The notes under the pieces: generated by a model
Seen by the model: the letters and a program-made list of their open reading frames with translations, nothing else
What the model was told of the DNA's origin: nothing
Database searches by the model: none
Translations under genes and position numbers: made by a program
Part shown: in pieces, positions 12,001 to 35,202 of the stretch
Layout: every line of letters begins with the position of its first letter
Position numbering within the stretch: the first letter of the stretch is position 1
Origin: Candidatus Hatepunaea meridiana
GTDB lineage: Bacteria > Electryoneota > AABM5-125-24 > Hatepunaeales > Hatepunaeaceae
Direction: 5' to 3'
NCBI GenBank assembly: GCA_030765125.1
Contig: JAVCDD010000180.1
Location: forward strand, 7,033 to 71,032
Length of the DNA: 64,000 bases

Positions 12001-15000
12001 CCACCGGCTTGATCTGCAAGATAAGCGTAGTCACCTGAAACGTAAACTGAAAAAGCTTGACCGGGTGTGTCGAACGCTCCAATCTCATCGGGATCATCGG
12101 GGTTGGAGACATCAATTATACGCAGACCGCTGGCGCCGTCTGCAACGTAGGCAAGATTGTCTTTGTAATAAACAGCATACGCGGCACCCGGGGTGTCGAA
12201 GGTTCCGACCTCATTGGGATTTTCGGGGTCTGAGATGTCGATTATGCGCAGTCCGCTGGCAGCGTCCGCAACGTAAGCATACGAACCAGCAACGTCTATG
12301 CCGGTTGCTTCACCGGGGGTGTCGTAGGAACCGACAGCCTGCGGTTGACCGGGGTCGGATACGTCGACAATCTGCATACCTTCCCAGTAGTCAGCTATGT
12401 AAGCCAGCCCTCGCGAGACGTAGACGCCTTCGGACATTCCGGGCGTTTCGTAATGACCTACCTGCCGGATCTGCGGACCGGTTCCGATGCCGGTTAAATC
12501 AACTTCAATCTCCTCGTTTTGAGGGTCGTTGGAGGTGATGGTCAGTGTGCCAGCGTAATCGATTGTTTCTACAGGTGTAAATGTTACGGTCTGTTCGATG
12601 CTGTTGTCGGGTTCTATGGTGATTTCGTCCTCAAATACGGTTTGGAATACTTCGTCACCCTGAATGGTAATATCAGTGATGATAAGATCCTCATTTCCTA
12701 CATTGGTGATGGTGAGGATAAGATCGCGGTCAATGTCAATGGCAGACTCGCCGAAGTCGAGCGCACCCGGTGAGATCCTGATAGTCGGAGGCTGGGGTTG
12801 CTGTTGGTAGTAGAATGCGCCCATATCGGCACGTGTTTCATCGCTATCCTGGGGCGAGTTCGGATCACCGACGTCTATACAGGGGGAGTCTTCGGTCAGT
12901 TGGAAATCATCATTGTCAAAGTCGGCAAATAAGGGATCCTGATCGATGTTGCCGGCGCCGTTATAACCACCCTGAACGTCAGAATAGGTAATGGTTTGTC
13001 CACCAGGAAGCGCTGCCGGGGTGTTTCCCCAGAATATCGAGTTGACTGCCTGTGTTTGAGCGCCACCCCCTCCAACACCTATTCCGCCGTTACCGCCATC
13101 GGCGTCGTTGTTGGTGAATGTTATGTTATTCAGGAGCGGTTGCGCACCAGTGGTGACATAGATGCCTGCACCTCGTCCGCTGACGTGATTGCCTGTTATC
13201 AATAGATGATGCAATGTAGGATTAGCGCCACGGATGTAAGAGCCGCCGCCGAAGTCGGTATCTGCATTGCGGATTGTGAAGCCTGCGAGGACAGCTTCGT
13301 TTGTCTCACCGTTGCGGAAGACCGTTACGCTTCTGCCGTTGGCGTCACCGTCGATAATGGTCGAAGCGATGTAATCAGGATCACCGGTTGTGATATAGAG
13401 GCTGCCAACGACGATATTCTTACCAATAAAGTCAATGATCTCAGTATAGGTTTCAGGTTGAACCAGTACTGTGTCACCGTCAGCAGCGTTGTCGATTGCT
13501 TCCTGGATGGTGTCGTAGTCGTCCGGAACGTTGATTATAAAATCTCGTCCCGATCCGGAAAGAGCTACTGCGAGATCCTCGTTCTCAGGATCGTCAGATG
13601 CTATGGTAAGTGTTCCAACGAAATCATCAATGTCATCCGGTGAGAAGGTTACGGTTAATTCGCGACTTTCATTCGGTTGGATGACGATCTCATTCTCGAA
13701 ATCGCTGATGAAGTTGTCCCCTTCAATAGTTATATCGGATATAGTCAGATCACCGAAACCGGTGTTGCTGATAGTGAGTATCAGGTCTGCTTCGTCGTCA
13801 ATCGGAACAGCACCGAAGTCCAGGGCATCCGGAGATACGTCAATAGCGGGGATCGCTTCGACACCGATTCCGGTCAGGTTCACATCCAGGTTCTCGTTAT
13901 CCGGATCGTTAGATGTGATTACAAGCGTGCCGGCGAGATCACCGGTATCATCCGGCTGGAAGGTGACAGTTACATCAGAAGTGTTGCCCGGTTCGATGAC
14001 CACTTCATTCTCGAAATCTGAACTGAATATGTCTCCTTCAATAGTAATATCCGAGACATTCAGGTTTTCACGTCCTCTATTTCGGATGGTTAGAATCAGA
14101 TCGGCGCTCTGGTCGACTACTACCTCAGCAAAGTCAAGCGCTTCAGGAGAAACAACGATGCTCGGTCCCTCTGCCTGGAATAACGGGAATGTTCCCATAT
14201 CGGCGCGTGTGCCGTCCGGGTCTTCGGGTGCATCAGGATTGCCTGTATCTTTACAGGGGCTGTCATCGGTCAGGTGAAAATCATCATTGTCGGGATCAAC
14301 GAACAATGGATCTGTATCTATGTTGCCTCTGCCGTTATAACCGCCCTGGATATCAGAGAATGTGATCGTCTGGTTGGCGGGAATATCTGGTGGGGCATTA
14401 TCCCAGAATATGGAGTTTACAATAGTAACCACTGATCCACCGAAAACATCCAGAACACCGTTGTTTTGCTCAGAATCATTGCGGGTCAGGGTAACGTTTG
14501 TCATCGTAGGACTACCGCCGCCATAGGCAATTATCGCACCGCCCCATCTTACGGTATGGTTATCGGTGATCAATAAATGATCCAGTATCGGGCTGCCGCC
14601 ATTACAGAGTATTCCCCCTCCGAAATCAGCGGCGCCGTTGCGAATTGTAAAACCGGACAGGATGGAATTCACTGTCTCACCGTTGGCAAAGGTTACAACG
14701 CTAGTGTTATTAGCATCGCCATCGATTATGGTTGATTCAACGTAATCCGCATCACCTGTAGTAATAAACAGGCTGCCTACAATGATTTCCTTGCCGTTAA
14801 AGTTGATGTTTTCTGTGTATGTCCCGGGCGCTACCAAAACAGTATCCGTGTCGATGGCATTATCAATAGCTTCCTGTATAGTATCGAAATCATCAGGCAC
14901 ATCGTGTACATGATCGAGCGGTTCGATGCCAGTTCCAGTTAAAGCGACGTCAACTTCTTCTTCATTCGGGTCATCGGATGTAATAGTGAGCGTTCCCTGG

Positions 15001-18000
15001 TAATCTTCTATATCATCAGGTGCAAACGTTACCGTAACATCATAACTGTTGTCCGGTTCGATTACGATTTCATCTTCTTCGAAGTCGTGCGTGAAAACAT
15101 CACCTTCAATAGTGATGTCAGTTACGGTCAGATCGGTACGACCATTATTCCTGATTGTGAGCGACAGTTCAGCGCTCAATTCAAGCTCAACCTCTCCAAA
15201 GATAAGTTGAGCCGGTATTACCGATATGTTTGGCTCTTCCGGCAGCTCGAAGTAGAAGGCGCCCATATCATTGCGTGTTTCGTCAGGATCCTGTGGTGAA
15301 TTCGGATCACCTGCATTTATACAAGGGGAGTCTTCAGTTAATTGGAAATCATCATTATCAAAGTCGGCAAATAAGGGATCGGAATCAAGATTCCCTGCTC
15401 CGGCGTATCCACCCTGAACATCGGAATATGTAATAGTCTGACCGCCAGGAAGCGCTGCAGGTGTGTTTCCCCAGAATATCGAGTTGATTACCTGGGTTTG
15501 AGCGCCGCCCCCACCGACTCCGATTCCACCGTTGGCACCGTCGGCATCGTTGTTGGTGAATGTTATGTTATTCAGGAGCGGTTGTGCTCCGGTAGTGGCA
15601 TAAATCCCTGCGCCGCGTCCGCTGACATGGTTGGCGGTTATTAATAGGTGGTGCAATGTTGGACTGGCGTCACGGATGTATGAGCCGCCTCCGAAGTCGG
15701 TATCTGCATTGCGAATTGTGAAACCGGCAAGGACGGCTTCGTTTGTCTCGCCGTTGCGGAAGACCGTTACGCTTCTGCCGTTGGCGTCACCATCAATAAT
15801 GGTCGAAGCGATATAGTCGGGATCACCTGTGGTGATATACAAACTGCCGACAACGATGTTCTTGCCAATAAAGTCAATGATTTCAGTATAGGTCTCAGGT
15901 TGAACCAGCACCGTGTCGCCGTCAACAGCGTTGTCGATTGCTTCCTGAATGGTATCGTAGTCATCCGGAACATTGATTATGTAATCCCGTCCCGATCCTG
16001 AAAGAGCAACAGCGAGATCCTCGTTCTCCGGATCGTTAGATGCTATGGTTAACGTTCCATTAAAATCACCAACGTCATCCGGTGAGAAGGTCACATTTAA
16101 TTCATAGCTGTCATCCGGTTCGATTACAACCTCATTCTCGAAATCGCTGATGAAATTGTCACCTTCAATGGTTACATCGGATATAGTCAGATCACCGAAG
16201 CCGGTGTTGCTGATGGTTAGTATCAAGCCTGCCTCGTCGTCAACCGGAATTGCTCCAAAGTCCAGCGCATCCGGCAATACTACTATTGCAGGAATCGCTT
16301 CGACACCGATTCCGGTCAGGTTCACCTCCAGATCTTCATTGTCCGGATCGTTGGATGTGATTACAAGCGTACCAGCGAAATCTCCGGTAGCATTCGGCTG
16401 GAAGGTAACGATTACTTCAGAAGTGTTGCCTGGCTCGATGACTACTGCATTCTCAAAATTGCTGCGGAAGTTATCCCCCTCAATTGTTATATCGGATACC
16501 CTTAAGTCTTCACGTCCTCTATTTCGGATGGTGAGCGTCAGATCAGCGCCCTGGTCGACTACTACCTCAGCAAAGTCGAGAGCTTCAGGGGAAACAACGA
16601 TACTTGGTCCTTCAACCTGGAACAGCGGGAATGTTCCCATATCAGCGCGTGTGCCGTCCGGGTCTTCGGGTGCATCAGGATTGCCTGTGTCTTTACAGGG
16701 ACTGTCATCGGTCAGGTGAAAATCATCATTGTCGGGGTCAACGAACAATGGGTCTGTATCTATATTGCCTCTGCCGTTATAACCGCCCTGAATGTCGGAG
16801 AAGGTGATTGTTTGGTTAGCCGGTATATCAGGTGGGTCGTTATCCCAGAATATGGAGTTTACAATAGTAACCACTGATCCACCGAAAACATCCAGAGTGC
16901 CGCTATTTTGCTCGGAATCATTACCGGTCAGGGTAACGTTTCTCATCGTAGGACTACCGCCGCCATACGCAATTATCGCACCGCCCCATCTGACGGAATG
17001 GTTGTCGGTGATCAATAAATGATCCAGCATCGGGCTACCGCCATTACAGAGTATTCCCGCTCCGAAGTTAGCACCGCCATTGCGGATAGTAAAACCTGAC
17101 AGGACGGAATTCACTGTCTCACCGTTGGCAAAAGTTACTACGCTCGTGATATTCCCATCACCGTCAATAATTGTTGATTCGACGAAATCTGCATTACCTG
17201 TTGTAATAAATTGACTGCCGACGACGATTTCCTTGCCGCCAAAGTTGATGTTTTCAGTATAAGTTCCGGGCGCTACCAACACAGTATCCGTATCGATGGC
17301 GTTATCGATGGCTTCCTGAATGGTATCGTAGTCGTCGGGAACGTTGATCCTGAAACTTCTCCCGATTCCAGAAAGAGCGACAGCCAACTCTTCGTTCTCC
17401 GGATCATCTGATGCAATAGTAAGTGTCCCATTAAAATCACCTACGTCATCAGGAGAGAATGTAACCGTTAATTCATAACTGTCATCCGGTTCGATTACAA
17501 CCTCATTCTCAAAGTCGCTGCTGAAGTTATCGCCTTCAAAGGTAACGTCCGAAACGGTCAGGTCACCGAAACCCACGTTGGCGATAGTGAGTATCAGATC
17601 CGCATCGCCGTTAACCACTACCGCACCGAAGTCCAAAGCATCTGGAAATGGATCAATAGAAGGGATAGCTTCCACGCCGATTCCTGTCAGATTAACCTCC
17701 AATTCCTCGTTATCCGGATCATTGGATGTAATTACAAGCGTTCCGTTAAAATCACCTGTATCATCAGGCTGGAAAGTGACAGTTACTTCATAAGTGTTGC
17801 CCGGCTCGATGTCCACTTCATTATCAAAATCGCTTCTGAAGATGTTCCCCTCAATCGTTATATCAGATACATTTAAGTCTTCGCGTCCCCTGTTTCTGAT
17901 AGTGAGCGTTAGATCGGCACTCTGGTCGACTACAACCTCAGCAAAGTCAAGCGCTTCAGGAGAAACAACGATACTTGGTCCCTCTGCCTGGAATAGTGGG

Positions 18001-19862
18001 AATGTTCCCATATCGGCGCGTGTGCCGTCCGGGTCTTCTGGGGAGTCAGGATCACCTGTATCGATACAGGGGCTGTCGTCAGTCAGGTGATAATCATTAT
18101 TGTCGGGATCGGCAAATAAAGGATCCGTGTCGATGTTGCCTGCACCTGCATACCCACCCTGGACATCGGAGTAGGTAATCGTTTGATTGGCTGGTATATC
18201 GGGTGGATCGTTATCCCAGAAAATCGAGTTAACCATATTAACAACTGCACCGCTGAAAATGCTCAAAGCTCCGTTGCCTTGATCGGCGCTATTGCCTGTT
18301 AAGGTGATGTTTCGTATAGTAGGGCGGGCGTTGGCGTAAGCAATTATTCCTCCGCCTCGATTGACGGCGTTGTTGCCGGTTATCAGGAGATGATCCAGCG
18401 TCGGGGCAGAACCATTACAGAGTATTCCCGCTCCGAAGTTAGCCCTGCCATTGAAGATAGTAAAACCTGACAGGATGGAGTTCACTGTCTCACCGTTGGC
18501 AAAGGTTACTACACTCGTGTTATTCGCATCGCCGTCAATAATAGTTGATTCAACATAATCCGCATCACCCGTTGTAATAAAAAGGCTGCCGACAAGGATT
18601 TCCTTGCCGCTAAAGTTAATATTCTCCGTGTAAGTTCCGGGAGCAACCAGTACAGTATCCGTATCAAGCGCATTATCAATAGCTTCTTGTATAGTATCAT
18701 AATCATCCGGCACGTCTATTCTGTGATCGCGGGGTTCTACGCCCGTTCCTGTTAAAGCAACGTCAAGTTCTTCCTGGTCCGGGTCGTCGGAGGTAATAAT
18801 TAGCGTTCCCTGATAATCCTGCGTTTCCTCAGGGGCAAAGGTTACAATTACATCATAACTGTTATCCGGGTCGATAACTACTTCATCTTCTTCAAAGTCA
18901 TGCGTGAAACCATCTTCATGAATGGTAATATCCATTACAGTCAAGTCGGTGCGTCCAATATTGCTTATAGTAAGAGTTAATTCAGCGTTTTGTTCAAGCT
19001 CAACATCCCCAAAGTTAAGCTCAGCCGGTGACACGGCAATATTCGGTTCTTCCGGCTGATCGAAGTAGAACGCGCCCATATCGGCGCGTGTCTCGTCGGG
19101 ATCATCGTCTGAATTGGGGTCTCCGGTGTCAATACAGGGGGAGTTCTCTGTGATGTAAAAATCACCTTCACCAGGATCGACAAACAACGGATCCTGGTTG
19201 ATGTTTCCATTACCGGCATAACCACCCTGGATGTCGGAATATGTAACGGTCATCCCATTGGGTCTTCCGGCGGGTTGGTTGCCATAGGATATGCAGTTGA
19301 CCATATTAGCCGAGGCGCCGCCGTAGACATGAATTCCCCCATTGCCGCCTTCAGCCGTATTGTTGGCAATCGTAATGTTGGTCAAACTGGGAAGAGCGTC
19401 GCTGGTGCAATAGATGCCACCTCCCCACCTGGCAGCGTGGTTTCCGGTAATGAGCAGATGATCCAGCGTCGGTCGAGCGTTGTTAATGTATAGTCCACCA
19501 CCGTAATTTGCCGAACCGTTTGTGATCGTAAGACCAATCAACCGCGCTTCCGCGCCTACACCACCGCGAATTGAAACAATAGTACCACCACCACCGCCAT
19601 CGATGATAGTATTTTCGATGTGCTCCGGATCGTTTTCGTTCAGGTAGAGACTGGCAACGGTGATTTCCTTATCCAGGAAATTGATGTTTTCAACGTATCT
19701 ACCGGGCTGAATCAGCACGACATCGCCGTCTTCAGCTTCGATTATCGCTTCCTGAATGGTTTCAAAGTCGTCAGGAACGTTTATCACCTCAGCGTAAACG
19801 GTTGATACACCTGTGATTATTGCAAGTATAAAAGTAATAATTAGAGGAAATTTAGGACGCAT
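1..19862 (-). CDS. Giant secreted multidomain surface protein; N-terminus complete, C-terminus beyond the left window edge (>=6620 codons)
   Basis: Absent from the ORF track, which appears to list only ORFs with a stop in the window. The ATG is at 19862-19860 on the minus strand, followed by the signal-like peptide [24 protein letters not shown]. I hand-translated 1-2700 codon by codon and read through the rest. The nine V-P-D-D module starts (first bases 19778, 18713, 17342, 15971, 14900, 13529, 11243, 8036, 5144) and the RRD codons at 2498 and 1796 all share one phase (coordinate mod 3 = 2). A stop in that phase would have produced a listed ORF starting at 19862, and none is listed. Confidence 0.85.
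   Translation of the reverse strand, partial: [6620 protein letters not shown]
1026..1060 (-). repeat. Heptanucleotide tandem repeat (TGGATTT)2(TGAATGT)2, in frame in the giant ORF
   Basis: Units attttgg (1026-1032, 1033-1039), attttga (1040-1046), atgttga (1047-1053) and atgtcag (1054-1060). Verified translation is ...[22 protein letters not shown]. Confidence 0.8.
1817..1865 (-). repeat. Heptanucleotide tandem repeat (TGAATGT)4 plus degenerate flanking units, in frame in the giant ORF
   Basis: Perfect units lie at 1824-1830, 1831-1837, 1838-1844 and 1845-1851. Degenerate units are tgaattt (1817-1823), tgattat (1852-1858) and tgattcg (1859-1865). The stretch translates on the minus strand as [28 protein letters not shown]. 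Confidence 0.85.
2511..2600 (-). mobile_element. 90-bp palindromic element (family A, GGGGACAGTATACC core) lying in frame inside the giant ORF
   Basis: The perfect 27-bp arms are gaaatagggggacagtatacctatttc (2511-2537) and its reverse complement (2574-2600). The arms are identical to the intergenic copy at 23858-23944. The 36-nt loop resembles that copy's loop in inverted orientation. Codon-by-codon translation gives [31 protein letters not shown] with no stop. Confidence 0.75.
3215..4110 (-). repeat. LVIVD-repeat beta-propeller block 4
   Basis: Repeats such as [25 protein letters not shown] and [25 protein letters not shown]. Confidence 0.7.
5795..6685 (-). repeat. LVIVD-repeat beta-propeller block 3
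   Basis: Repeats such as [24 protein letters not shown] and [23 protein letters not shown]. Confidence 0.7.
6783..6809 (-). repeat. REP-like 27-mer (GTAG head + GACAGACA/TGTCTGTC hairpin) inside the giant ORF
   Basis: The plus strand reads gacagacaggaatgtctgtcctaccgg. The minus strand reads ccGGTAGGACAGACATTCCTGTCTGTC and codes PVGQTFLSV within an Ig-like domain. It is identical to 11373-11399 and near-identical to intergenic copies at 35287, 35349 and 56611. Confidence 0.8.
9000..9885 (-). repeat. LVIVD-repeat beta-propeller block 2
   Basis: Repeats such as [25 protein letters not shown] and [25 protein letters not shown]. Confidence 0.7.
11373..11399 (-). repeat. Second identical copy of the REP-like 27-mer inside the giant ORF
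   Basis: Same 27-mer as 6783-6809, coding [15 protein letters not shown]. A degenerate relative, gacagacaaggatgtccgtcccacc, lies at 11501-11525. Confidence 0.8.
11600..12475 (-). repeat. LVIVD-repeat beta-propeller block 1
   Basis: Translation shows about 7 repeats of the form AYVAD..[24 protein letters not shown], matching my memory of the PF08309 LVIVD consensus. Confidence 0.7.
12465..17348 (-). repeat. Tandem duplication, two units of 2442 bp (beta-helix + 2 Ig + beta-helix + 1 Ig) inside the giant ORF
   Basis: Module starts 17342/14900 and 15971/13529 are each exactly 2442 bp apart. A 60-nt stretch I compared (16981-17040 vs 14539-14598) matches at 55/60. The antisense shadow ORFs 13531..14277 and 16150..16719 have near-identical translations. 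Confidence 0.8.
17349..18719 (-). repeat. Partial third copy (1371-bp sub-unit: beta-helix + 2 Ig) of the tandem repeat
   Basis: The module start at 18713 lies 1371 bp from 17342. The shadow ORF 17794..18090 is near-identical in translation to the corresponding parts of 16150..16719 and 13531..14277. Confidence 0.7.
19794..19862 (-). other. Predicted signal peptide of the giant ORF
   Basis: Translation [32 protein letters not shown] has a basic N-terminus, a hydrophobic core and a VYA-type cleavage motif. No predictor was run. Confidence 0.55.
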
Positions 19863-19910
19863 GATGGGTACCTTTTGTATGATTTCTCGATTGAATTGTG
19901 AAGGTTATGA

Positions 19911-20078: not shown

Positions 20079-20317
20079 GATTCCTTGATTCCTGTGAATA
20101 GATTTACCAATAGGTGTGAATCAGATTCGCATTTGAAAGGATAAAAACGTGTTCAGTTTAAACTGTTAGAGGATATGCTTTGAGTTACCAGTAGGAAGAA
20201 ATGATAACTTGAAACAGATAATAATAACCTAATAAGATGTGCAAAAACCTTGCCGGTTTATTCTATCACTGCGTTGAAAGGAAGCGTCGGGAAGGGCAGA
20301 CATTCTTGTCCGTCACG

Positions 20318-20704
20318 TTAATGATCTTTGTGTTTGTAGTGTCTCTTCCCTTGAGCAGAGCTAACGCTTATCTTCAACGTAGAAGTTGTAATCGGAGGAA
20401 CAAGATCGTTTTTTACCTTCTCAACAGCTTCTCTGACTTTCATACCATGACAAGAATAGACTGTCCAGCCGAAGTTGGCACAATTAGTGAAAGCTCCCGG
20501 TCCAATGTTGCCTACGATGATGCGACCTATATTCATACCTTGAAAACTATCCAAGCCGCGGAATGGTTCTTTTTCTCCTCCGCCCCTTATCGCACTAAAT
20601 TCCATCGTTTCAGGATCAACTATCAGATAATAGGATGCGTGACCGAAGCGTTTGTGAATCTTTGCATCTAAGCTTGGTTCGGTTGCGGTTACTAAGTATT
20701 TCAT
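20318..20704 (-). CDS. NifX/NifB-like (dinitrogenase Fe-Mo cofactor biosynthesis domain, PF02579-type) small protein
   Basis: A 128-aa ORF. HKRFGHASYYLIVDPETMEF and RIIVGNIGPGAF fit the HFGxaxxFxixD ... iG.ga pattern of this family. Confidence 0.7.
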   Translation of the reverse strand: MKYLVTATEPSLDAKIHKRFGHASYYLIVDPETMEFSAIRGGGEKEPFRGLDSFQGMNIGRIIVGNIGPGAFTNCANFGWTVYSCHGMKVREAVEKVKNDLVPPITTSTLKISVSSAQGKRHYKHKDH

Positions 20705-20724
20705 TGTGTTTTCCTTGATAATAA

Positions 20725-20802
20725 ACGTACTGAGTGCGCGCTTTAGGGCGTAAAGTTAATAATATAAACATAGTCAACACGCACTAAAGTGCGCACTCTG
20801 AA
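20725..20802. repeat. Family B long hairpin (TTCAGAGTGCGCGC..GCGCGCACTCTGAA type) between cistrons
   Basis: The arms gtactgagtgcgcgctttagggcgt and acgcactaaagtgcgcactctgaac are related to the hairpins at 50143-50226 and 50667-50760. Confidence 0.7.
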
Positions 20803-21824
20803 CACATGTATCGTTTAGGACAATCTCTACAGGGAACCGGTGGAAAATCGGAATTGACAGCTTTACGGAAATCGTGATATTCCTTACTATGCCAGATCGT
20901 AGAAAGAGACTGTTTGTTAATATTCCCAAATGTGAGAGGTTGATAATTATACTCTATTTTACCACTATAGTATAGAGCATTCTCAACTGGTAAACAAGTG
21001 AATACACAGGGAGATATATCACCGTTTGAAGATACGAAAAGAGCATTCTGTGAGCGCTCTGTGCATTGGGAAAGGTAGTTTTCCGGAGATCGTATCCGGT
21101 AATGTATTCTAACATTATTATCCGCTGCTGAACGTACAATCGTATCAAGTTGTACACATAGTTCATTAAATTCATTCATCGTTTTCGGCGCTATGGTCTC
21201 ACCGACAAGTTGAGTGGATGGAACGAAATCCAGTGTACTGATGATTCCTTCACTGACACCTGTTCCCTTCAACAACTCCGGCAGATTGTATATTTCATTC
21301 AATCCGCTTCGTAAAAGCAAATATGCAATATGAACTCTTGGCAGGTTCGATCCGTTCTTTTTCTTCAACCTGTCTAACTTGCGGATGGTTGTCAAGACCT
21401 GGTCAAGAGTTGTTCCAACTCGTATCCTGTCATTAGCTTCAGTTGCACCTGCCAGCGAGAATGCAATAATATCAATTTGACTAACTACCAAATGATCAAG
21501 CATTTCATCATCCAGGAGCATTCCATTAGTAGAAGTGCCTACTGTACAACCACTTTCCTTCACCATTGTTGCCATTTCAAAGAAGTTACGATTCATAAAC
21601 GGTTCACCCCAACCTTGCAAGAAAACCAAGCGGGTTTTACTGAAAACAGGTTGCAGCCGCTCGAAAGTACTCAACGGCATATATCGGTTTTGCCAACTAT
21701 CACGGTAAATGGTGTGAGGACAATAGATACAGGAAGCATTGCAGTAAGAGCTGATCTCAACCTGTATCCAATCTAAACGGGGGTTGCGTAGAGAAGTCCA
21801 TTGGTTTTGCAGATGTTTGAACAT
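20784..21824 (-). CDS. Radical SAM protein with C-terminal SPASM-type Cys cluster
   Basis: A 346-aa ORF. The CxxxCxxC motif is in EISSYCNASCIYCPH. The C-terminal cysteines are SPCVFTC and CRDCPKRYMCSEC (Cx2Cx5Cx2C). Confidence 0.85.
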   Translation of the reverse strand: MFKHLQNQWTSLRNPRLDWIQVEISSYCNASCIYCPHTIYRDSWQNRYMPLSTFERLQPVFSKTRLVFLQGWGEPFMNRNFFEMATMVKESGCTVGTSTNGMLLDDEMLDHLVVSQIDIIAFSLAGATEANDRIRVGTTLDQVLTTIRKLDRLKKKNGSNLPRVHIAYLLLRSGLNEIYNLPELLKGTGVSEGIISTLDFVPSTQLVGETIAPKTMNEFNELCVQLDTIVRSAADNNVRIHYRIRSPENYLSQCTERSQNALFVSSNGDISPCVFTCLPVENALYYSGKIEYNYQPLTFGNINKQSLSTIWHSKEYHDFRKAVNSDFPPVPCRDCPKRYMCSECAL

Positions 21825-21847
21825 TTGGGGTTTGGGTTTAGCGTGGT

Positions 21848-21918
21848 AAAACCAGCCTGATGGTTGAACTCTGAACTTGAAAACAGCCTAAGGGCTGGAC
21901 TCTGAACTCTAAACTCTG
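21848..21918. repeat. Family C elements: short hairpins followed by GAACTCTGAAC / (AACTCTR)3
   Basis: aaccagcctgatggtt+gaactctgaac is followed by cagcctaagggctgg+actctgaactctaaactctg. Relatives lie at 25747, 50886 and 63787. Confidence 0.65.
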
Positions 21919-21922
21919 TACT

Positions 21923-23830
21923 TCATATTCTGCAAGCCAGTTCAAAACCATCCCGTACCGCGCTGAATATATTTGCTGGTTTGTTAGCGTCACCGATGCT
22001 GTGAACGCTGATGCCTCTGGTTAGAAGCTGTGACTTTAAGCGGTTTTGGGATTTCATACCAATCGCTATTATAACGGTATCAAACTCACCTAATAGTGAT
22101 TTTCCTTTTTTCCCTTTTATAAACGCTTTATCACCATCGAACCATTCAACCTTCGTATTGGTTAAGATAGTAACGTCTTTGGATGTTAGGCTTTTCATCG
22201 TCATTTTCTTGTTGATCGGTATCATATCCCGTCCTACTTCTTCCAACATTTCAACAACGGTAACCTTATGACCTTTCTGCGCCAGAAAATCGGCGGTTTC
22301 CAATCCGACCATACCACCACCTATTATGAGCGCATTTTGACCGATCTTCTCTTTCTCGAAAAGGACGTCATCGCTGAACAGTACTTTCCCCATACCCTTG
22401 ATCTCCGGTATTATCGGGATTGATCCTGTTGATAGAATCACATGATCGGGCTTTTCCCACAGGATATCCTCAGCGGTGGCGTGTTGGTTCAGTTTAAGCG
22501 TTACACTGCTATGCTTTATCTTATTTATCAACCCATCAAGAGGCTTTTTCATCATAGTTTTACCGGGTGGAATTACCGCAGATCTGAATTGACCGCCAAG
22601 CTTTCCCTCATCGAATAGAATGACGTTATGACCTCGTTTATCGGCGGTAACAGCCGCCTGGATACCGGCAGGACCGCCGCCAATAATCACGACCTTTGCG
22701 GGTTTTACGGCAGGTTCTACAGCTTCTGTTTCAAATCCTGCTTCAGGGTTAATCAAACAGCCTATACCCTCACCGGAATGAACCCTGGCAAAGCAACCTT
22801 GCAGACAGGCTCCGCACTGTGCAACCTCAATGTCTCGATTCTCCTTCATTTTCAAAGGTAGGTCCGGGTCAGCAAGCAACGGTCTGCCGAGTGATATTCC
22901 GTCAACGATTCCTTCATTAATGGCATGCCGAATATCAGCCGGATCACCCATTCGACCGGCTACAAAGACAGGAATATTTACCGATTTACGAATAGCGCCC
23001 GCCCACTCCAGATTCTTACCTGCAGGCAGACTCATATATTGAAAATACCAGGGAGGTGAATCGCAGGCTGAACCACTGACGACATGCAATGCTGCTATTC
23101 CCTGTTCTTCAAGGAATTGCGCCAGATTCACTGCATCGCGAAGTGTTATACCACCTTCGATCATTTCATTAGCTGATATTCGCGCAATAATGGGAATATG
23201 ATTGCCGACGGTGTCCTGCACGGCAGCGAGCACTTCTCTACCAAAGCGATAGCGATTGTCAAGGCTTCCGCCATATTCGTCATTTCGGTGATTTGTGTGT
23301 GATGAGATGAATTGCGAGATCAGATAACCGAGCCCGAATTGCAGCTCAATAATGTCAAATCCGGCGTTCACTGCACGTCCTGTTGCCCTGGCGAATTTCT
23401 CGATGATGGTATTAATGCGCTCAATGCTCAGGACTTCAGGCGTCTCACCTGTGCTCGGACAGGTAACAGTTGAAGGGGCTTCGGGGGTCATCCCGGAAGC
23501 TTTCGATCTTACCGCTCTGCCACCGTGGTTGAAGTGAGCTACAGCGAGAGAACCAGCTTGATGAATCGCTGAAGTCAAGTTCGATAATCCTTCAACATGA
23601 TCATCTGTCATTATACTCAGTTGCTTGGGATGTTCGCGGCAGGCTGGATCAATGACAAGAGGCTCGATGATGATTGCAGCGATTTTGCCTTCAGCGCGAC
23701 GCTGATAAAAGGCGATGTGTCTTTCATTTACCATTCCATCCGGCTTACCAAAAGCGGTCTTCAAAGGCGCCATAATAAGCCGGTTGGATAAAACGGTATT
23801 CCCAATCTCTATTTGGGAAAAAGGTTCCAT
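21923..23830 (-). CDS. Old-Yellow-Enzyme-type NADH:flavin oxidoreductase fused to an FAD/NAD(P)-binding domain (2,4-dienoyl-CoA reductase / enoate reductase-like)
   Basis: A 635-aa ORF. The N-terminus LIMAPLKTAFGKPDG...HIAFYQRRAEG...HGGR is OYE-like. It carries a Cys cluster CGACLQGCFARV and two Rossmann GxGxxG motifs (VVIIGGGPAGIQAA, ALIIGGGMVGLETA). Confidence 0.85.
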   Translation of the reverse strand: MEPFSQIEIGNTVLSNRLIMAPLKTAFGKPDGMVNERHIAFYQRRAEGKIAAIIIEPLVIDPACREHPKQLSIMTDDHVEGLSNLTSAIHQAGSLAVAHFNHGGRAVRSKASGMTPEAPSTVTCPSTGETPEVLSIERINTIIEKFARATGRAVNAGFDIIELQFGLGYLISQFISSHTNHRNDEYGGSLDNRYRFGREVLAAVQDTVGNHIPIIARISANEMIEGGITLRDAVNLAQFLEEQGIAALHVVSGSACDSPPWYFQYMSLPAGKNLEWAGAIRKSVNIPVFVAGRMGDPADIRHAINEGIVDGISLGRPLLADPDLPLKMKENRDIEVAQCGACLQGCFARVHSGEGIGCLINPEAGFETEAVEPAVKPAKVVIIGGGPAGIQAAVTADKRGHNVILFDEGKLGGQFRSAVIPPGKTMMKKPLDGLINKIKHSSVTLKLNQHATAEDILWEKPDHVILSTGSIPIIPEIKGMGKVLFSDDVLFEKEKIGQNALIIGGGMVGLETADFLAQKGHKVTVVEMLEEVGRDMIPINKKMTMKSLTSKDVTILTNTKVEWFDGDKAFIKGKKGKSLLGEFDTVIIAIGMKSQNRLKSQLLTRGISVHSIGDANKPANIFSAVRDGFELACRI

Positions 23831-23857
23831 TATCTTTACTCCTAAGATGGGATTGAT

Positions 23858-23944
23858 AAATAGGGGGACAGTATACCTATTTCATAAATACTCTTTGAAA
23901 TAACGACGGTCAATAAAGAAATAGGTATACTGTCCCCCTATTTC
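23858..23944. repeat. Family A palindromic element, intergenic copy
   Basis: The arms aaatagggggacagtatacctatttc (23858-23883) and gaaataggtatactgtccccctatttc (23918-23944) sit in the 131-bp spacer between the Mrp-NifX stop and the OYE start. Confidence 0.8.
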
Positions 23945-23961
23945 CACTTTGTGGTGAGATA

Positions 23962-25176
23962 CTAATGATCACAGATATTCTCACCTGCTGTAAGTGTTCC
24001 ATCAAGATATGATTTTGCAATTACTTCAGGTGTTTCGCAAGGTCCACCGATGATGACATTGATGCCCAGTTGCGTAAATATATCTTTAGCCCGACCACCC
24101 ATACCACCGGCTACTACCACGTTGGTTCCATGCTCCTTAAGCCAACCCGGGAGCATTCCCGGTTGATGACCAGGAGGAGGTATATTAACGGTGTTCTTGA
24201 TTGAATGGCTGCTTTCATCTATGTCGACAAAAGCAAAGGTCTCACAATGACCGAAGTGTTCGCAAAGCTTACCTTGTGCGATAGGAACCGCAATTCGCAA
24301 TAGATCGTCTGTTTTCATTGAAACAGGCGGTTCTTTAATTACTTCAGATAACCCGGATGCATCTACAACCGGTATGGTTATCTGATTGACTATATCATTG
24401 AAAGCAGCCGCGGCGGCAGATGCCATAAAGCTCTTCAGATACGGATTCCCCGCTTCGGCAGCATCGGCAACCTGTTTGTCAAGAGGTATTGCACCCAGGA
24501 AAGGAACGCTCATCTCTGCTGCCATTCGAGCGCCTCCACCGGCGCCGAAGATGTTGACCCTTGCTCCGCAATCAGGGCATATAAAGCCGCTCATATTTTC
24601 AATGACGCCGATGACTTTCACATTCAACTTATGACAAAAATTGATACACTTACGAACATCATCTATTGATATTTGCTGAGGTGTTGTTACGATTATCGCA
24701 CCTTCCGGTTCGGGAAGCTTCTGGGCGATCGAGAGCGGTTCATCGCCAGTTCCCGGTGGTGAATCTATAATCAAATAGTCCAGTTCACCCCATTCTACGT
24801 CACTTAGGAACTGAGTTATCATTTTGTTCTTCAGCGGACCGCGCCAGATTACGGCGTCATCGCGATTTGGCAGCAGAACGCCGATTGACATAATCATAAG
24901 ATTATCGTTGTATTTAACCGGAAGAATCGTGTTCTCTTCCTGACCGATTTTAGCGTGCTGGTCCTGGAGGTTAAAGAGTTGTGGAATATTCGGACCGTGG
25001 ATATCAATGTCCATTAATCCGACCTTTTTGCCTTGCATTGCGAGCGAGGCAGCGAGGTTAGCAGCGACCATACTTTTCCCGACGCCGCCTTTGCCTGAAA
25101 GAACAAGTATCTTTTTATCTATTTTAGACATACGGTTTTTTATTGCTTGATCTTCGTGCGAGTTGTCTTTGTTCAA
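23962..25176 (-). CDS. Mrp/NBP35 (ApbC-like) P-loop Fe-S cluster carrier ATPase fused to a C-terminal NifX/NifB-like domain
   Basis: A 404-aa ORF with Walker A LSGKGGVGKS and the CPxC motif GFICPDCG. The C-terminal roughly 110 aa, EHFGHCETFAFVDID...VVVAGGMGGRAKDIF, is NifX-like. Confidence 0.85.
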   Translation of the reverse strand: MNKDNSHEDQAIKNRMSKIDKKILVLSGKGGVGKSMVAANLAASLAMQGKKVGLMDIDIHGPNIPQLFNLQDQHAKIGQEENTILPVKYNDNLMIMSIGVLLPNRDDAVIWRGPLKNKMITQFLSDVEWGELDYLIIDSPPGTGDEPLSIAQKLPEPEGAIIVTTPQQISIDDVRKCINFCHKLNVKVIGVIENMSGFICPDCGARVNIFGAGGGARMAAEMSVPFLGAIPLDKQVADAAEAGNPYLKSFMASAAAAAFNDIVNQITIPVVDASGLSEVIKEPPVSMKTDDLLRIAVPIAQGKLCEHFGHCETFAFVDIDESSHSIKNTVNIPPPGHQPGMLPGWLKEHGTNVVVAGGMGGRAKDIFTQLGINVIIGGPCETPEVIAKSYLDGTLTAGENICDH

Positions 25177-25230: not shown

Positions 25231-25689
25231 TTACCATTTCACTAACACCCGATCATCATCCCCATAGAACTGCGGTGTCTGCAAACCGCTTATCCTATTG
25301 GATGTATCCATAACATTCTCAATGACATAGGACTTTAATTCACCGAGTGTTACTTTCAGGTCATTATTGCCGTCCGCTTTTCCTTTCAAACCTAACGCTA
25401 TATAATACGTAAACAATCCGGTTTCAGATTGGTCGAATCCGAGCGAAGTTTCGCTTCCCGACGATGAATTGATAACTGTGAAATTTGGGTATTGCAGCCA
25501 AGGTTTCTTTATCCGTATACCGATACCGATCGCCTTGTCGGGGCTGAAGCAGGCAGATATAACAATCTTCGAATGCCCATCCAGTGTTTTCCACAGTGAC
25601 ACATCGAATTCGGTTTCATCGGCAGCATTGCAGTTTACTACGATCAGGGCAAGAACGGCTATGATAAGGGGTAAGATTTTAAATTTCAT
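25231..25689 (-). CDS. Hypothetical secreted protein or lipoprotein
   Basis: The track ORF is 25231..25755. I prefer the internal ATG at 25689, which gives MKFKILPLIIAVLALIVVNCNA (signal/lipobox-like). It has weak motifs only: a WD40-like GHSKIVISACFSPD and a tail, DGNNDLKVTLGELKSYV...GLQTPQFYG, resembling the C-terminus of bacterial caspase-family proteins. Confidence 0.45.
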   Translation of the reverse strand: MKFKILPLIIAVLALIVVNCNAADETEFDVSLWKTLDGHSKIVISACFSPDKAIGIGIRIKKPWLQYPNFTVINSSSGSETSLGFDQSETGLFTYYIALGLKGKADGNNDLKVTLGELKSYVIENVMDTSNRISGLQTPQFYGDDDRVLVKW

Positions 25690-25746
25690 TGTGATCGTCT
25701 CTTTTATGAACCACAGATTACGCGGATTTAACAGATTATTTTGTTT

Positions 25747-25810
25747 AGAGTCCAAGCTTCAGCTTGTTTTAGCTATCTAACCAGCAAGCTGAAGCTTGAA
25801 CTCTGAACTG
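25747..25810. repeat. Family C hairpin element
   Basis: agagtccaagcttcagcttg ... caagctgaagcttgaactctgaactg. Confidence 0.65.
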
Positions 25811-26070
25811 AAAAAATCTGCGTAATCTGCGGATGAAAAACAATATCAATTTACTAAAAAACAATTCCAAAGTCAATTATTTCAATCCTTTCTATTGATT
25901 TTGAATAAATGTAATTCCAGCATTTGGTGTGCATACGTTGCATATATTAACAACGGGGAATAAAACCCAATCCTTATTGCGATATGGTTTCTAATGTAAA
26001 AGATATTGGCACGACTTTTGCAACAGAATATTACAGAGAAGAAATTCCCTCGGTTCATATGATGATTTGT

Positions 26071-26276: not shown

Positions 26277-26891
26277 ATGTCGGAGAAATTCGAACCCATA
26301 ATAAAGCGCGCATTTCTGTTGTTGCTGGCAATCCTGATGCTTGCCGGCGCTGGGAATGCGCCTGAAAATAGAGCGGAATACCGCGAAGAGATGGCAAAGA
26401 TCGAGCTATTATTCGGTGAACTTGACGAATATAAAGGCTACCAGACATTGATGAACCAAATCGGGTTGGACGAAACAATCGAGGTTATTCAACTTATTGA
26501 GAACAGCGATTACCCGGAAATGGTTAAGGCAATTATTGAAGTTGAATCAGCGTGGAAAGTGAGAGCTTTGTCGAATATGGACGCAATCGGATTAATGCAG
26601 ATCAGAATGATTGCGGCAACCGAAGTTGAACCCGGGATTAATTCAAGTCAGTTGTATAACCCGACGGATAACGTTCGTATCGGTATCAGCATCTTTGAAA
26701 ACCACATGGCTTATTTTACAAACTACACCGATACCGAACATTGGGCGTTAACAGCTTACAATAGAGGGCGTACGGGAACGTTCAATCTGAAGCTTAAACC
26801 ACCTCGAACAAGATATTCAAACAAAGTGCTGGATATAAGATCTAACACCGGTTTTCACAGCATCGTAAGCGTCAACAATCAAGTGACATAA
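26277..26891 (+). CDS. Soluble lytic transglycosylase (SLT domain, PF01464-type)
   Basis: A 204-aa ORF with an N-terminal hydrophobic segment. The catalytic-region motif is IIEVESAWKVRALSNMDAIGLMQI, followed by ALTAYNRG. Confidence 0.8.
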   Translation: MSEKFEPIIKRAFLLLLAILMLAGAGNAPENRAEYREEMAKIELLFGELDEYKGYQTLMNQIGLDETIEVIQLIENSDYPEMVKAIIEVESAWKVRALSNMDAIGLMQIRMIAATEVEPGINSSQLYNPTDNVRIGISIFENHMAYFTNYTDTEHWALTAYNRGRTGTFNLKLKPPRTRYSNKVLDIRSNTGFHSIVSVNNQVT

Positions 26892-34714: not shown

Positions 34715-34848
34715 AAGTATTTCAACAGGATCATTAATATAAGAGATTAAATATTTGGAATTGGGACATAACTCCTCTTGAAAGTGAAATGGATTTTACT
34801 ATATTAGGATAACTAATTCACATTTCCAAACACAAAAGGAGTTACAAA

Positions 34849-35202
34849 ATGGCGAAAAAACACATAGCCATCTTTTACTGCAAGCGCATTCAAGACCACA
34901 CCTGCATAGCTTGTGCTAAATGTTTCAAAGCTGCCCCCTTGAAAAACGGGAAATTCTCACAATACGATGAAGAAATCGAGATAGTGGCAATGACGGATTG
35001 CGGTGATTGTCCAGGGCTGTTAATGCCTCGAGTTCCGATGATCAGGACTCTGGGAGGACATGTGGACGCTGTTCACCTGGGCACCTGTGTCACTCAGGCA
35101 AAGGAACACGGTGAATGTCCGCTTGATCTTGAAGAAATGAAAGTGAAACTTGAAAAGAAATTGGGGATTCCTGTGATTATCGGGACGCATGATTATGTTT
35201 GA
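34849..35202 (+). CDS. Small Cys-rich protein, probable CGGC-domain (PF08821-type) metal-binding protein
   Basis: A 117-aa ORF with Shine-Dalgarno aaggag at 36-41 of 348xx (34836-34841), 7 nt before the ATG. Cys motifs are CIACAKC, DCGDCPG and LGTC...HGECP. The family assignment is from memory of the CGGC pattern. Confidence 0.5.
   Translation: MAKKHIAIFYCKRIQDHTCIACAKCFKAAPLKNGKFSQYDEEIEIVAMTDCGDCPGLLMPRVPMIRTLGGHVDAVHLGTCVTQAKEHGECPLDLEEMKVKLEKKLGIPVIIGTHDYV

What the first reader, a model, noticed from the sequence alone, without database searches (positions are those of the whole stretch)
20318..25176. Four-gene Fe-S/radical-SAM operon without nitrogenase: Mrp-NifX fusion, OYE-FAD oxidoreductase, rSAM-SPASM, NifX-like
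The genes are co-oriented with spacers of 79-131 bp. NifX/NifB-type domains (two here, one fused to an Mrp/NBP35 cluster-carrier ATPase) bind complex Fe-S cofactor precursors in nitrogen fixers, but no nif structural gene is present. A CGGC-domain protein lies 10 kb away.

A SPASM radical-SAM enzyme beside cluster carriers and a large flavin/Fe-S reductase suggests maturation of an unknown metallocofactor or a modified substrate. I found no obvious precursor-peptide ORF.

Each inter-cistronic spacer is occupied by a different repeat-family hairpin (20725-20802, 21848-21918, 23858-23944). These could act as mRNA stabilisers or processing sites.
Basis: partly seen in the sequence, partly recalled or inferred. 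Interest (0 to 1): 0.5.

Follow-up and report, generated by a model that had tools for sequence, protein, structure and literature searches.

The report
Orange-protein (ORP) type Fe-S operon variant
This four-gene cluster from an uncultured Antarctic-lake sulfate reducer is a rearranged version of the little-understood "orange protein" iron-sulfur cluster-handling system of anaerobes. It carries two extra iron-sulfur enzymes, one of which turns out to be a frequent and apparently unreported partner of that system.

Summary
Four co-oriented minus-strand genes have spacers of 131, 98 and 79 nt, each filled by a repeat hairpin.

Gene 1 is MrpORP (NCBIfam equivalog, 513 bits against a cutoff of 450). 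Gene 4 is a NifX-domain protein whose nearest solved structure is the Desulfovibrio gigas orange protein. So the NifX domains without nitrogenase belong to the known, functionally unresolved, anaerobe-specific ORP system.

Gene 2 is a FadH-type FMN/[4Fe-4S]/FAD reductase of an unnamed subfamily. In 26 evaluable metagenome contigs:
- 50% of its orthologues lie within 5 kb of Mrp/NBP35, ParA-ferredoxin or NifX genes.
- 14 loci carry a sigma-54 activator with the OrpR cysteine motif.

Gene 3 is a radical-SAM enzyme with a truncated SPASM domain, from a large unnamed family. It fails TIGR04317. Only 11% of 63 genomes place it near ORP-type genes, and only one other MAG shares the reductase–rSAM–NifX order.

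The hairpins are genome-wide REP/MITE-like repeats that expanded once-tight junctions. One supplies the last six codons and the stop of the rSAM gene.

Verdict: a new variant of a known kind. The metallocofactor reading is partly supported, and the function remains inferred.

The parts
23962..25176 (-). MrpORP (Orp9-type). An Mrp/NBP35 P-loop ATPase with Walker A GKGGVGKS at residue 28 and CPDC at residue 200, fused to a C-terminal NifX-like (Nitro_FeMo-Co) domain at residues 302-388.
   Evidence: NCBIfam NF041136 scores 513.3 bits against a cutoff of 450. Pfam gives ParA 1.4e-99 and Nitro_FeMo-Co 1.7e-17.
23858..23943 (.). Family-A MITE-like element in spacer 1: perfect 26-nt terminal inverted repeats around a 34-nt loop.
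   Evidence: A second copy with a related loop lies at 2511-2600.
21923..23830 (-). FadH-type multidomain Old Yellow Enzyme. It has an FMN TIM barrel, a CX2CX3CX11C [4Fe-4S] motif (C339, C342, C346, C358), and an FAD/NAD(P)H domain with two GxGxxG motifs.
   Evidence: Pfam Oxidored_FMN 1.8e-65 and Pyr_redox_2 5e-32. It is below every NCBIfam cutoff. The best solved structures are 6QKG (2-naphthoyl-CoA reductase) and 1PS9 (FadH). The cysteines are invariant in 21 orthologues.
21849..21910 (-). Two tandem 31-nt REP-like units in spacer 2. Each is GTTCAGAGT plus a small stem-loop and a U-run, in the sense orientation of the operon.
   Evidence: Predicted folding energies are -8.6 and -4.7 kcal/mol.
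20784..21824 (-). Radical-SAM enzyme (CX3CX2C at C28, C32, C35) with a truncated SPASM domain. Only C254, C273, C332 and C335 are conserved. There is no N-terminal RiPP-recognition domain.
   Evidence: Pfam Radical_SAM and SPASM. TIGR04317 scores 176 bits against a cutoff of 380. Alignment A1. The AF2 model has pLDDT 90, and the nearest folds are SuiB, SkfB, DesII, BlsE and anSME.
20732..20803 (.). REP-like inverted pair in spacer 3. Its right arm overlaps the rSAM 3' end and encodes the last six residues (CSECAL) and the stop codon.
   Evidence: The homologues in A1 end about 5 residues earlier.
20318..20704 (-). ORP-like small NifX-domain protein of 128 aa.
   Evidence: Pfam Nitro_FeMo-Co 5.3e-11. 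The best solved structure is 2WFB, D. gigas ORP, at 4.5e-7. Orthologues at 46-62% identity include some beside DUF364, CGGC, MrpORP or OrpR-like genes.
25231..25755 (-). Upstream co-oriented 174-aa ORF with a hydrophobic, signal-peptide-like N-terminus, 54 nt from MrpORP. Whether it belongs to the operon is unknown.
   Evidence: There are no Pfam or NCBIfam hits.
34849..35202 (+). Stand-alone CGGC-domain protein. It is a likely functional associate but is not part of the operon: it lies 9.7 kb away on the opposite strand, beyond two secreted-protein genes.
   Evidence: Pfam CGGC 4e-24. CGGC genes recur in orthologous clusters.

Best explanation
The locus is a compact, rearranged version of the anaerobe-specific ORP (orange protein) gene cluster, in a sulfate-reducing member of Candidatus Electryoneota.

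MrpORP is an ATP-dependent carrier. In Desulfovibrio it holds a bridging [4Fe-4S] cluster on its CXXC motif and a [3Fe-4S] cluster on its NifX-like domain, and it can hand clusters to apo-proteins. Here MrpORP and a small ORP-like NifX protein bracket two Fe-S enzymes. One is a FadH-type NAD(P)H/FAD/[4Fe-4S]/FMN reductase. The other is a radical-SAM enzyme with a truncated SPASM domain.

The most likely working model is that the carrier pair assembles, holds and delivers Fe-S clusters (or related metal clusters) for the two co-encoded redox enzymes under low-potential conditions. The reductase is a regular member of the extended OrpR/sigma-54 ORP neighbourhood in other anaerobes. The radical-SAM gene is an occasional, lineage-specific recruit.

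**Shown here:**
- Family identities.
- Conserved cofactor motifs.
- Neighbourhood statistics.
- The repeat insertions.

**Inferred:**
- Co-transcription.
- Cluster delivery to these two particular enzymes.
- Any substrate.
For: **Identity of the carrier pair.**
- MrpORP passes its equivalog cutoff and has the Walker A, CXXC and Di-Nase features. These features are defined in PMC6345978.
- The small protein's nearest solved structure is ORP.
- Its orthologues lie 1-3 kb from MrpORP in L173 and L174, and beside an OrpR-like activator in L172.

**The reductase subfamily.** Among 26 evaluable contigs of orthologues:
- 50% have Mrp/NBP35, ParA-Fer4 or NifX genes within 5 kb.
- 42% have a sigma-54 activator.
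- 12% have a CGGC gene.

Further support:
- Mrp is the commonest identified immediate neighbour.
- The Mrp-then-reductase order of the window recurs in L113, L120, L121 and L145.
- 14 loci carry an activator with CX8CX3C in its PAS domain, matching OrpR C52, C61 and C65 (PMC8359166).
- The density of ORP-type genes falls with distance from both anchors.

**Shared gene order.** L012 has an OrpR-like activator followed by reductase, rSAM and NifX. The junctions are a 15-nt gap and a 4-nt overlap.

**Precedent.** PMC6345978 reports Mrp-type carriers tied to particular clients: ApbC is required for maturation of TcuB, and DVU2330 lies in a hydrogenase-biogenesis operon.
Against: - No experiment links MrpORP to these clients.
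- The physiological role of the ORP complex is itself unresolved; a role in cell division has been proposed.
- The window lacks Orp3/4-type ParA-ferredoxin genes and an OrpR gene. It also has no sigma-54 promoter upstream of the operon on the coding strand.
- The rSAM link is weak. Only 11% of 63 genomes place it near ORP-type genes, and the nearest homologue has no ORP-type or reductase gene beside it.
- Strong hairpins and terminator-like units sit between the genes, so the four genes may not be one transcript.
- The contig counts include related populations and are not independent events.
Confidence: 0.5

Rival explanations
1. The operon is a dedicated biosynthetic pathway for an unknown complex metallocofactor, built on NifB-like logic. 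The radical-SAM enzyme remodels clusters assembled on the Mrp scaffold. The NifX-like proteins carry the product. The flavoenzyme supplies electrons.
For: - The rSAM gene is directly followed by a NifX-domain gene, and in L012 the two overlap by 4 nt. NifB itself is a radical-SAM domain fused to a NifX domain (general knowledge).
- ORP binds a Mo-Cu cluster in D. gigas (cited in PMC6345978).
- The nearest NCBIfam models are putative metalloenzyme maturases, TIGR04317 and TIGR04311.
- Neighbours in related loci include DUF364 (a putative metal-chelation domain), a CDF transporter fused to NifX, ArsP_2, FeoB and TusA.
Against: - The rSAM is not NifB-like beyond the superfamily. NifB ranks 50th by fold and is absent from the top 25 NCBIfam hits listed.
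- It scores less than half the TIGR04317 cutoff.
- No candidate target metalloenzyme is encoded in the 64-kb window.
- The rSAM is absent from most ORP-type clusters.
Confidence: 0.2
2. There is no four-gene functional unit. The radical-SAM gene is an independent, widely distributed anaerobe gene that landed between ORP-type genes. Only the reductase and ORP genes are functionally linked.
For: - The rSAM family has more than 1,400 homologues across phyla. At least 568 places in the GTDB species-representative genomes encode a relative.
- Its neighbourhoods are highly variable: a YeiH-like PF03601 protein in 22 of 85 loci, ars-like operons in 8, and ORP-type genes in about 11%.
- The sister genus Electryonea and most reductase loci use a different, roughly 308-aa non-SPASM radical-SAM gene.
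- Mobile repeats fill all the junctions.
Against: - ORP-type genes are about 4-5 times denser within 2.5 kb of the rSAM than at 7.5-10 kb.
- The association recurs in several unrelated groups labelled by the source records: Desulfotomaculales and Bacillota, Ignavibacteriales, Desulfobacterales and Desulfomonilaceae.
- The same reductase–rSAM–NifX order occurs in L012 at only 50-57% identity.
Confidence: 0.25
3. The SPASM radical-SAM enzyme is a RiPP maturase acting on an unannotated precursor peptide.
For: - The SPASM domain.
- The top fold matches are the RiPP maturases SuiB, SkfB and CteB.
Against: - There is no N-terminal RiPP-recognition domain; the radical-SAM core starts at about residue 17.
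- There is no credible small ORF in the spacers or flanks.
- No small ORF recurs next to the rSAM across the loci as a whole. The only recurring one, of about 95 aa, occurs in 5 of 85 loci.
- The SPASM cysteine set is truncated.
Confidence: 0.03

Closest known systems
Desulfovibrio vulgaris orp cluster (orp3-4-5 / orpR / orp7-8-9) encoding the orange protein complex
   Same: - An MrpORP (Orp9) equivalog.
- An ORP-like (Orp8-type) NifX-domain protein.
- An anaerobic, sulfate-reducing host with no nitrogenase genes at the locus.
- Related loci carry OrpR-like PAS/sigma-54 activators with the CX8CX3C motif.
   Different: - The window has no ParA-ferredoxin (Orp3/4) genes, no Orp5/7 genes and no orpR.
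- There are no divergent sigma-54 promoters serving the operon.
- Two extra enzymes, a FadH-type reductase and a radical-SAM/SPASM protein, sit between the carrier genes.
- MrpORP lacks the N-terminal cysteine motif of the Desulfovibrio proteins.
FadH / 2-naphthoyl-CoA reductase / BaiCD class of FMN-[4Fe-4S]-FAD Old Yellow Enzymes
   Same: The same three-cofactor architecture and the same CX2CX3CX11C motif. The best solved matches are 6QKG and 1PS9.
   Different: - It is below the curated cutoffs of all named subfamilies: mycofactocin OYE_2, BaiCD and bilirubin reductase.
- Its genomic context is Fe-S and metal handling, not fatty-acid, bile-acid or aromatic catabolism.
- The substrate is unknown.
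TIGR04317 tungsten-cofactor oxidoreductase radical-SAM maturase, and SPASM/Twitch enzymes generally (anSME, BtrN, BlsE)
   Same: - The CX3CX2C radical-SAM core with a C-terminal auxiliary-cluster domain.
- TIGR04317 is the nearest NCBIfam model.
   Different: - It scores 176 bits against a cutoff of 380.
- No aldehyde:ferredoxin oxidoreductase is nearby.
- Only four of the seven SPASM cysteines are conserved.
NifB (radical-SAM domain fused to a NifX domain)
   Same: A radical-SAM gene immediately followed by, or overlapping, a NifX-domain gene. Cluster-carrier proteins are present in the same operon.
   Different: There is no specific sequence or fold similarity to the NifB radical-SAM domain, and no nitrogenase. 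The resemblance is in architecture only.

Membership tests
MrpORP (NCBIfam NF041136; Orp9) | Whole-protein score above the curated equivalog cutoff. | tested here: met
   513.3 bits against 450, covering model positions 1-365.
MrpORP (NCBIfam NF041136; Orp9) | Deviant Walker A GKGGhGK[ST] and a CXXC motif in the P-loop domain. | tested here: met
   GKGGVGKS at residue 28 and CPDC at residue 200. The motifs are as defined in PMC6345978.
MrpORP (NCBIfam NF041136; Orp9) | C-terminal dinitrogenase FeMo-cofactor (Di-Nase, PF02579) domain. | tested here: met
   Nitro_FeMo-Co at residues 302-388, E 1.7e-17.
MrpORP (NCBIfam NF041136; Orp9) | Binds [4Fe-4S] and [3Fe-4S] clusters and transfers clusters to apo-proteins. 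| not testable with these tools
   The biochemistry is known only for the Desulfovibrio proteins (PMC6345978).
Canonical orp gene cluster (D. vulgaris type) | Presence of Orp3/4 ParA-ferredoxin ATPases, and an OrpR activator with divergent sigma-54 promoters. | tested here: not met
   - The window has no ORF of activator size and no ParA-Fer4 gene.
- There is no sigma-54 motif on the operon strand upstream.
- These genes are present in related loci.
Orange protein (ORP/Orp8) | A small single-domain PF02579 protein closest to D. gigas ORP. | tested here: met
   PF02579 at 5.3e-11. The best solved structure is 2WFB ORP at 4.5e-7, but with only 33 bits.
Orange protein (ORP/Orp8) | Non-covalent binding of a Mo-Cu heterometallic cluster. 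| not testable with these tools
   This needs metal analysis of the purified protein.
TIGR04317 tungsten-cofactor radical-SAM maturase | Score above the cutoff, and adjacency to an AOR-family tungsten enzyme. | tested here: not met
   176.4 bits against 380. No AOR-sized candidate ORF is present in the window.
SPASM-domain radical SAM | The seven-cysteine motif CX9-15GX4C ... CX2CX5CX3C ... C. | tested here: not met
   - Only C254-X13-G-X4-C273 and C332-X2-C335 are conserved in 25 homologues, although the Pfam SPASM model matches full length.
- The window copy gains C341 and C344 from the repeat-derived tail.
FadH-class OYE | Oxidored_FMN domain, CX2CX3CX11C [4Fe-4S] motif, and an FAD/NAD(P)H domain. 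| tested here: met
Named FadH-class subfamilies (mycofactocin OYE_2, BaiCD, BilR long) | Score above the curated equivalog cutoff. | tested here: not met
   460 against 793, 453 against 825, and 425 against 750.
RiPP maturase system | An adjacent precursor peptide and a RiPP-recognition element. | tested here: not met
   No candidate ORF. No N-terminal extension before the radical-SAM core.

The most novel reading that the evidence does not exclude
The FadH-type flavoenzyme could be the missing NAD(P)H-driven electron donor for cluster assembly on Mrp/NBP35-type scaffolds in anaerobes. It would then be a single-polypeptide analogue of the eukaryotic Tah18-Dre2 chain, which combines FAD, FMN and Fe-S cofactors and serves Nbp35-Cfd1.

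In the same reading, the radical-SAM and NifX pair is a split NifB-like module. It would convert Mrp-assembled clusters into the cluster carried by ORP proteins.

This would give the long-enigmatic ORP system a concrete biochemical pathway.
Probability: 0.12. Interest if true: 0.75.

Novelty: new variant of a known kind. Interest (0 to 1): 0.4.

Why it matters
The ORP complex was described in 2011, is specific to anaerobes, and is redox-regulated through OrpR. Its biochemical job is still unknown.

Two results here give concrete, testable partners for that system:
- A particular FadH-type NAD(P)H flavoenzyme subfamily recurrently sits next to Mrp/NBP35, NifX-like, CGGC and OrpR-like genes. It does so in contigs that source records assign to several phyla, including KSB1, Zixibacteria, Calditrichaeota and Electryoneota.
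- Radical-SAM genes of two different families join these clusters.

The searchable literature did not mention this link.

The result also corrects a likely misreading, that NifX without nitrogenase is anomalous. It further shows how dispersed repeats have reshaped an operon, including rewriting a gene's C-terminus.

Tried and rejected
- **Sigma-54 promoter upstream of the operon.** There is none on the coding strand. The only perfect match, at 26007-26022, points the other way.
- **Sigma-54 motifs upstream of reductase orthologues.** No significant enrichment: 0.19 against 0.115 per kb.
- **Rfam.** No family reached its gathering score anywhere in the window. Permissive hits in the region were chance-level miRNA and sRNA models.
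- **Precursor-peptide search.** Nothing credible.
- **TIGR04317 and TIGR04311 membership of the rSAM.** It fails the cutoffs.
- **Structure prediction and Foldseek of the rSAM.** The model is confident, but it matches only the generic SPASM/Twitch class and gives no functional assignment.
- **An OrpR-specific NCBIfam model.** None exists in the library. The activators hit only generic sigma-54 regulator models below cutoff. OrpR-likeness therefore rests on the cysteine motif alone.
- **Literature.** No paper in the held library links ORP or MrpORP with Old Yellow Enzyme or FadH-type enzymes or with radical SAM. The founding paper (Fievet 2011, PMC3133258) is not held.
- **The antisense 144-aa ORF used by the ENA and JGI gene calls.** Rejected. 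It has no Pfam hit and is conserved only within this genome. The NifX-like frame, by contrast, has orthologues at 46-62% identity.


Full report
**1. What is in the sequence**

Four ORFs lie head to tail on the minus strand:

| Gene | Coordinates | Length |
|---|---|---|
| 1 | 25176..23962 | 404 aa |
| 2 | 23830..21923 | 635 aa |
| 3 | 21824..20784 | 346 aa |
| 4 | 20704..20318 | 128 aa |

The spacers are 131, 98 and 79 nt. Protein names attached to identical database entries place the window in a MAG of Candidatus Hatepunaea meridiana. This organism belongs to the FCB-superphylum candidate phylum Electryoneota. It comes from the anoxic zone of Ace Lake, Antarctica, and is inferred to be a sulfate reducer (PMC9324843).

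Most of the rest of the window is giant secreted-protein genes.

**2. Gene identities**

*Gene 1* is MrpORP.
- It passes the NCBIfam equivalog model at 513 bits against a cutoff of 450.
- It has the deviant Walker A (GKGGVGKS), the CXXC motif (CPDC at residue 200) and a C-terminal Nitro_FeMo-Co domain.
- These features define MrpORP/Orp9 of Desulfovibrio. There the CXXC motif binds a bridging [4Fe-4S] cluster, the Di-Nase domain binds a [3Fe-4S] cluster, and the protein matures apo-aconitase (PMC6345978).

*Gene 4* is a single Nitro_FeMo-Co domain. Its best solved relative is the D. gigas orange protein 2WFB, at E 4.5e-7.

*Gene 2* is a FadH-type Old Yellow Enzyme.
- It combines an FMN barrel, a CX2CX3CX11C cluster motif and an FAD/NAD(P)H domain.
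- Its nearest solved structures are 2-naphthoyl-CoA reductase and E. coli FadH.
- It is below the cutoff of every named subfamily.

*Gene 3* is a radical-SAM enzyme.
- Its C-terminal domain matches Pfam SPASM full length.
- In 25 homologues it conserves only four auxiliary cysteines.
- TIGR04317 is the best model but scores 176 bits against 380, so gene 3 is not a member.
- A confident AF2 model (pLDDT 90) resembles the SPASM/Twitch class generically. It has no N-terminal peptide-recognition domain.

**3. Is the neighbourhood conserved?**

*Anchoring on the radical-SAM family* used 80 GTDB species genomes plus extra contigs. The context is highly variable:
- A YeiH-like PF03601 membrane protein is adjacent in 22 of 85 loci.
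- An ars-like operon occurs in 8 loci. Where the source records name a lineage, it is Syntrophaceae, Smithellaceae or Syntrophales.
- ORP-type genes (NifX, Mrp/NBP35, ParA-ferredoxin) lie within 5 kb in only 7 of 63 evaluable loci, or 11%.

The association is still above background.
- ORP-type gene density falls from 4.2 per 100 kb within 2.5 kb of the rSAM to 0.9 per 100 kb at 7.5-10 kb.
- It recurs in groups that the source records label Desulfotomaculales, Bacillota, Ignavibacteriales, Desulfobacterales and Desulfomonilaceae.

The closest homologue (55% identity) has no ORP-type or reductase gene beside it.

*Anchoring on the reductase subfamily* used 79 metagenome loci plus four long contigs. 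The picture is different. Of 26 contigs with enough flank:

| Feature within 5 kb | Share of contigs |
|---|---|
| Mrp/NBP35, ParA-Fer4 or NifX genes | 50% |
| Sigma-54 activator | 42% |
| A different, roughly 308-aa non-SPASM radical-SAM gene | 38% |
| CGGC gene | 12% |

Further points:
- Mrp is the commonest recognisable immediate neighbour.
- The window's Mrp-then-reductase order recurs in L113, L120, L121 and L145.
- Activators in 14 of these loci carry C-x-[DE]-[VI]-F-[RH]-x3-C-x3-C in the N-terminal PAS region. This has exactly the spacing of the three cysteines (C52, C61, C65) that bind the redox-sensing [4Fe-4S] cluster of OrpR (PMC8359166).
- Only 3 of 13 activators near radical-SAM-anchored loci have the motif. 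Two of those three loci (L042, L046) also carry ORP-type genes.

*Anchoring on gene 4*. Its orthologues sit in clusters with these gene orders:
- CGGC, NifX, an unknown protein of 152-161 aa, DUF364 and TauE.
- These continue to an OrpR-like activator with further NifX genes in L172, or to MrpORP in L173 and L174. The L174 protein scores 534 bits on the MrpORP model.

*Shared order.* Only one other genome, L012 (MAG Tobar14m-G34), shares reductase–rSAM–NifX.
- Identities to the window proteins are 57%, about 50% and 49%.
- The block is preceded by an OrpR-like activator.
- The junctions are tight: a 15-nt gap and a 4-nt overlap.

*Caveats on the counts.* They come from simple ORF calling, BLAST clustering and HMMs built here. 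Some contigs are near-duplicates or come from related populations. The percentages therefore describe contigs, not independent evolutionary events.

**4. The spacer hairpins**

*Spacer 1* holds a roughly 86-nt element with perfect 26-nt inverted ends. A second copy with a related loop lies at 2511-2600.

*Spacers 2 and 3* hold units of a single family: GTTYAGAGT, then a 5-6 bp G+C-rich stem, a TTCA-like loop and a T-run.
- The 9-mer occurs 14 times against 0.66 expected. Every copy lies outside the genes called here or at a gene's 3' end.
- The stem sequences differ between copies but stay complementary: CAGCC/GGCTG, CGCGC/GCGCG, CAACC/GGTTG and CAAGC/GCTTG.
- The units often occur as inverted pairs.

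Neither family occurs in any of the 172 loci from other organisms. No Rfam family matches.

They are therefore genome-specific REP/MITE-like repeats. Set against the tight L012 junctions, they probably explain the 79-131-nt spacers.

The spacer-3 copy overlaps the radical-SAM 3' end. It encodes the last six residues (CSECAL) and the stop codon, a tail that homologues lack.

In the sense orientation the small units look like weak terminators, at -4.7 to -9.6 kcal/mol. The 26-bp perfect duplex would be a strong RNA structure. Effects on mRNA fate are plausible but untested.

**5. Interpretation**

The locus is best filed as a new variant of the ORP-type cluster. It is not a nitrogenase-less oddity.

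What is shown:
- Family membership of the two carrier proteins.
- Cofactor motifs of the two enzymes.
- A statistically clear neighbourhood link between the reductase subfamily and ORP/OrpR-type genes.
- A weaker link for the radical-SAM family.

What is inferred:
- The carriers serve the two co-encoded Fe-S enzymes. PMC6345978 gives precedents for client-linked Mrp carriers in ApbC-TcuB and in DVU2330 in a hydrogenase-biogenesis operon.
- The four genes act together.

Rival readings remain open. They are a NifB-like metallocofactor pathway, a fortuitous insertion of the rSAM gene, and (very unlikely) RiPP maturation.

The most novel reading not excluded is that the FAD/FMN/Fe-S reductase is a bacterial counterpart of Tah18-Dre2, feeding electrons to an Nbp35-like scaffold.

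**6. Verdict**

- Novelty: a new variant of a known kind.
- Interest is moderate (0.4). It rests mainly on the reductase-ORP-OrpR association, which I did not find in the searchable literature and which offers a handle on an unresolved system.

Noticed in passing
window 26007-26022 (+): A perfect sigma-54 promoter consensus, TGGCACGACTTTTGCA, with 0 mismatches. It lies in the divergent intergenic region and points away from the operon. It is 255 nt upstream of an SLT-domain lytic transglycosylase gene (26277-26891). The ORP complex has been linked to cell division, so a sigma-54-driven cell-wall hydrolase next door may not be a coincidence.
   Followed up: partly
window 2511-2600: The second copy of the perfect 26/27-nt inverted-repeat element lies inside the stop-free frame of a giant minus-strand ORF (3..19904, more than 6,634 codons, running off the window). 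It is in frame and adds about 30 codons (…AEIGGQYTYFMSALEKNDGPLTEIGILSPYF…). This looks like an in-frame MITE insertion in a giant surface-protein gene.
   Followed up: partly
window 19945, 20795, 21868, 21899, 21906, 25743, 25800, 50145, 50674, 50745, 50905, 63788, 63802, 63883: A REP-like family made of a conserved 9-mer (GTTYAGAGT), then a short hairpin whose stem sequence covaries between copies, then a T-run. Copies are often in inverted pairs. It occurs 14 times against 0.66 expected. It is absent from all the other fetched loci, including the sister genus.
   Followed up: partly
window 20784-20803: The radical-SAM gene's last six codons and its stop codon are supplied by a REP-like unit. 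The new tail creates C332-X2-C335-X5-C341-X2-C344, which resembles the part of the SPASM cysteine motif that the family has otherwise lost.
   Followed up: partly
window 20237-20671 (+) versus 20318-20704 (-): The ENA and JGI gene calls for this organism annotate an antisense 144-aa ORF with no homologues in place of the NifX-like gene. NCBI annotates the NifX-like gene.
   Followed up: yes
window 3-19904 (-), 35641-50094 (-), 51070-56562 (+), 56819-62233 (+), 27068-30409 (-), 31069-34227 (+): The window is dominated by giant ORFs of more than 6,634, 4,817, 1,830 and 1,804 aa, plus two proteins of about 1,100 aa. One of the two carries a type-IX-secretion C-terminal sorting domain (Pfam Por_Secre_tail). 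The other has a similar C-terminal tail that I read by eye and did not scan against Pfam.
   Followed up: no
L050, L053, L060, L061, L063 (also L025, L083, L085): In these loci the radical-SAM family sits near the end of an ars-like gene string. The two members checked against Pfam are a PF03773 (ArsP_1) permease and a PF01758 (SBF, Acr3-type) transporter. The other recurring members, of about 117, 80 and 140 aa, were not scanned. From size and order I guess they are an ArsR-like regulator, a thioredoxin-like protein and an ArsC-like phosphatase. This hints at a role in metalloid or thiol chemistry. Where the source records name a lineage, it is Syntrophaceae, Smithellaceae or Syntrophales.
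   Followed up: partly
L089:4450-5397, L090:5999-6919, L091:5383-6309 and about 10 further loci: A different, roughly 308-aa radical-SAM protein without a SPASM domain is the usual radical-SAM partner of the reductase subfamily. It is often accompanied by a Cupin_7 protein and an ArsP_2 permease. The window and L012 carry the SPASM type instead, which may be a non-orthologous replacement.
   Followed up: partly
L092:5004-6218: A cation-diffusion-facilitator transporter fused to a C-terminal NifX-like domain lies directly upstream of a reductase orthologue in a KSB1 MAG.
   Followed up: no
window 34384-34425, 34616-34715, 35517-35633: The stand-alone CGGC gene is flanked by several further strong inverted repeats. 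One is a 29-nt pair with the core GTCATTCCCGCGAAGGCGGG, and there is a nested set just upstream of the giant gene's 3' end.
   Followed up: no
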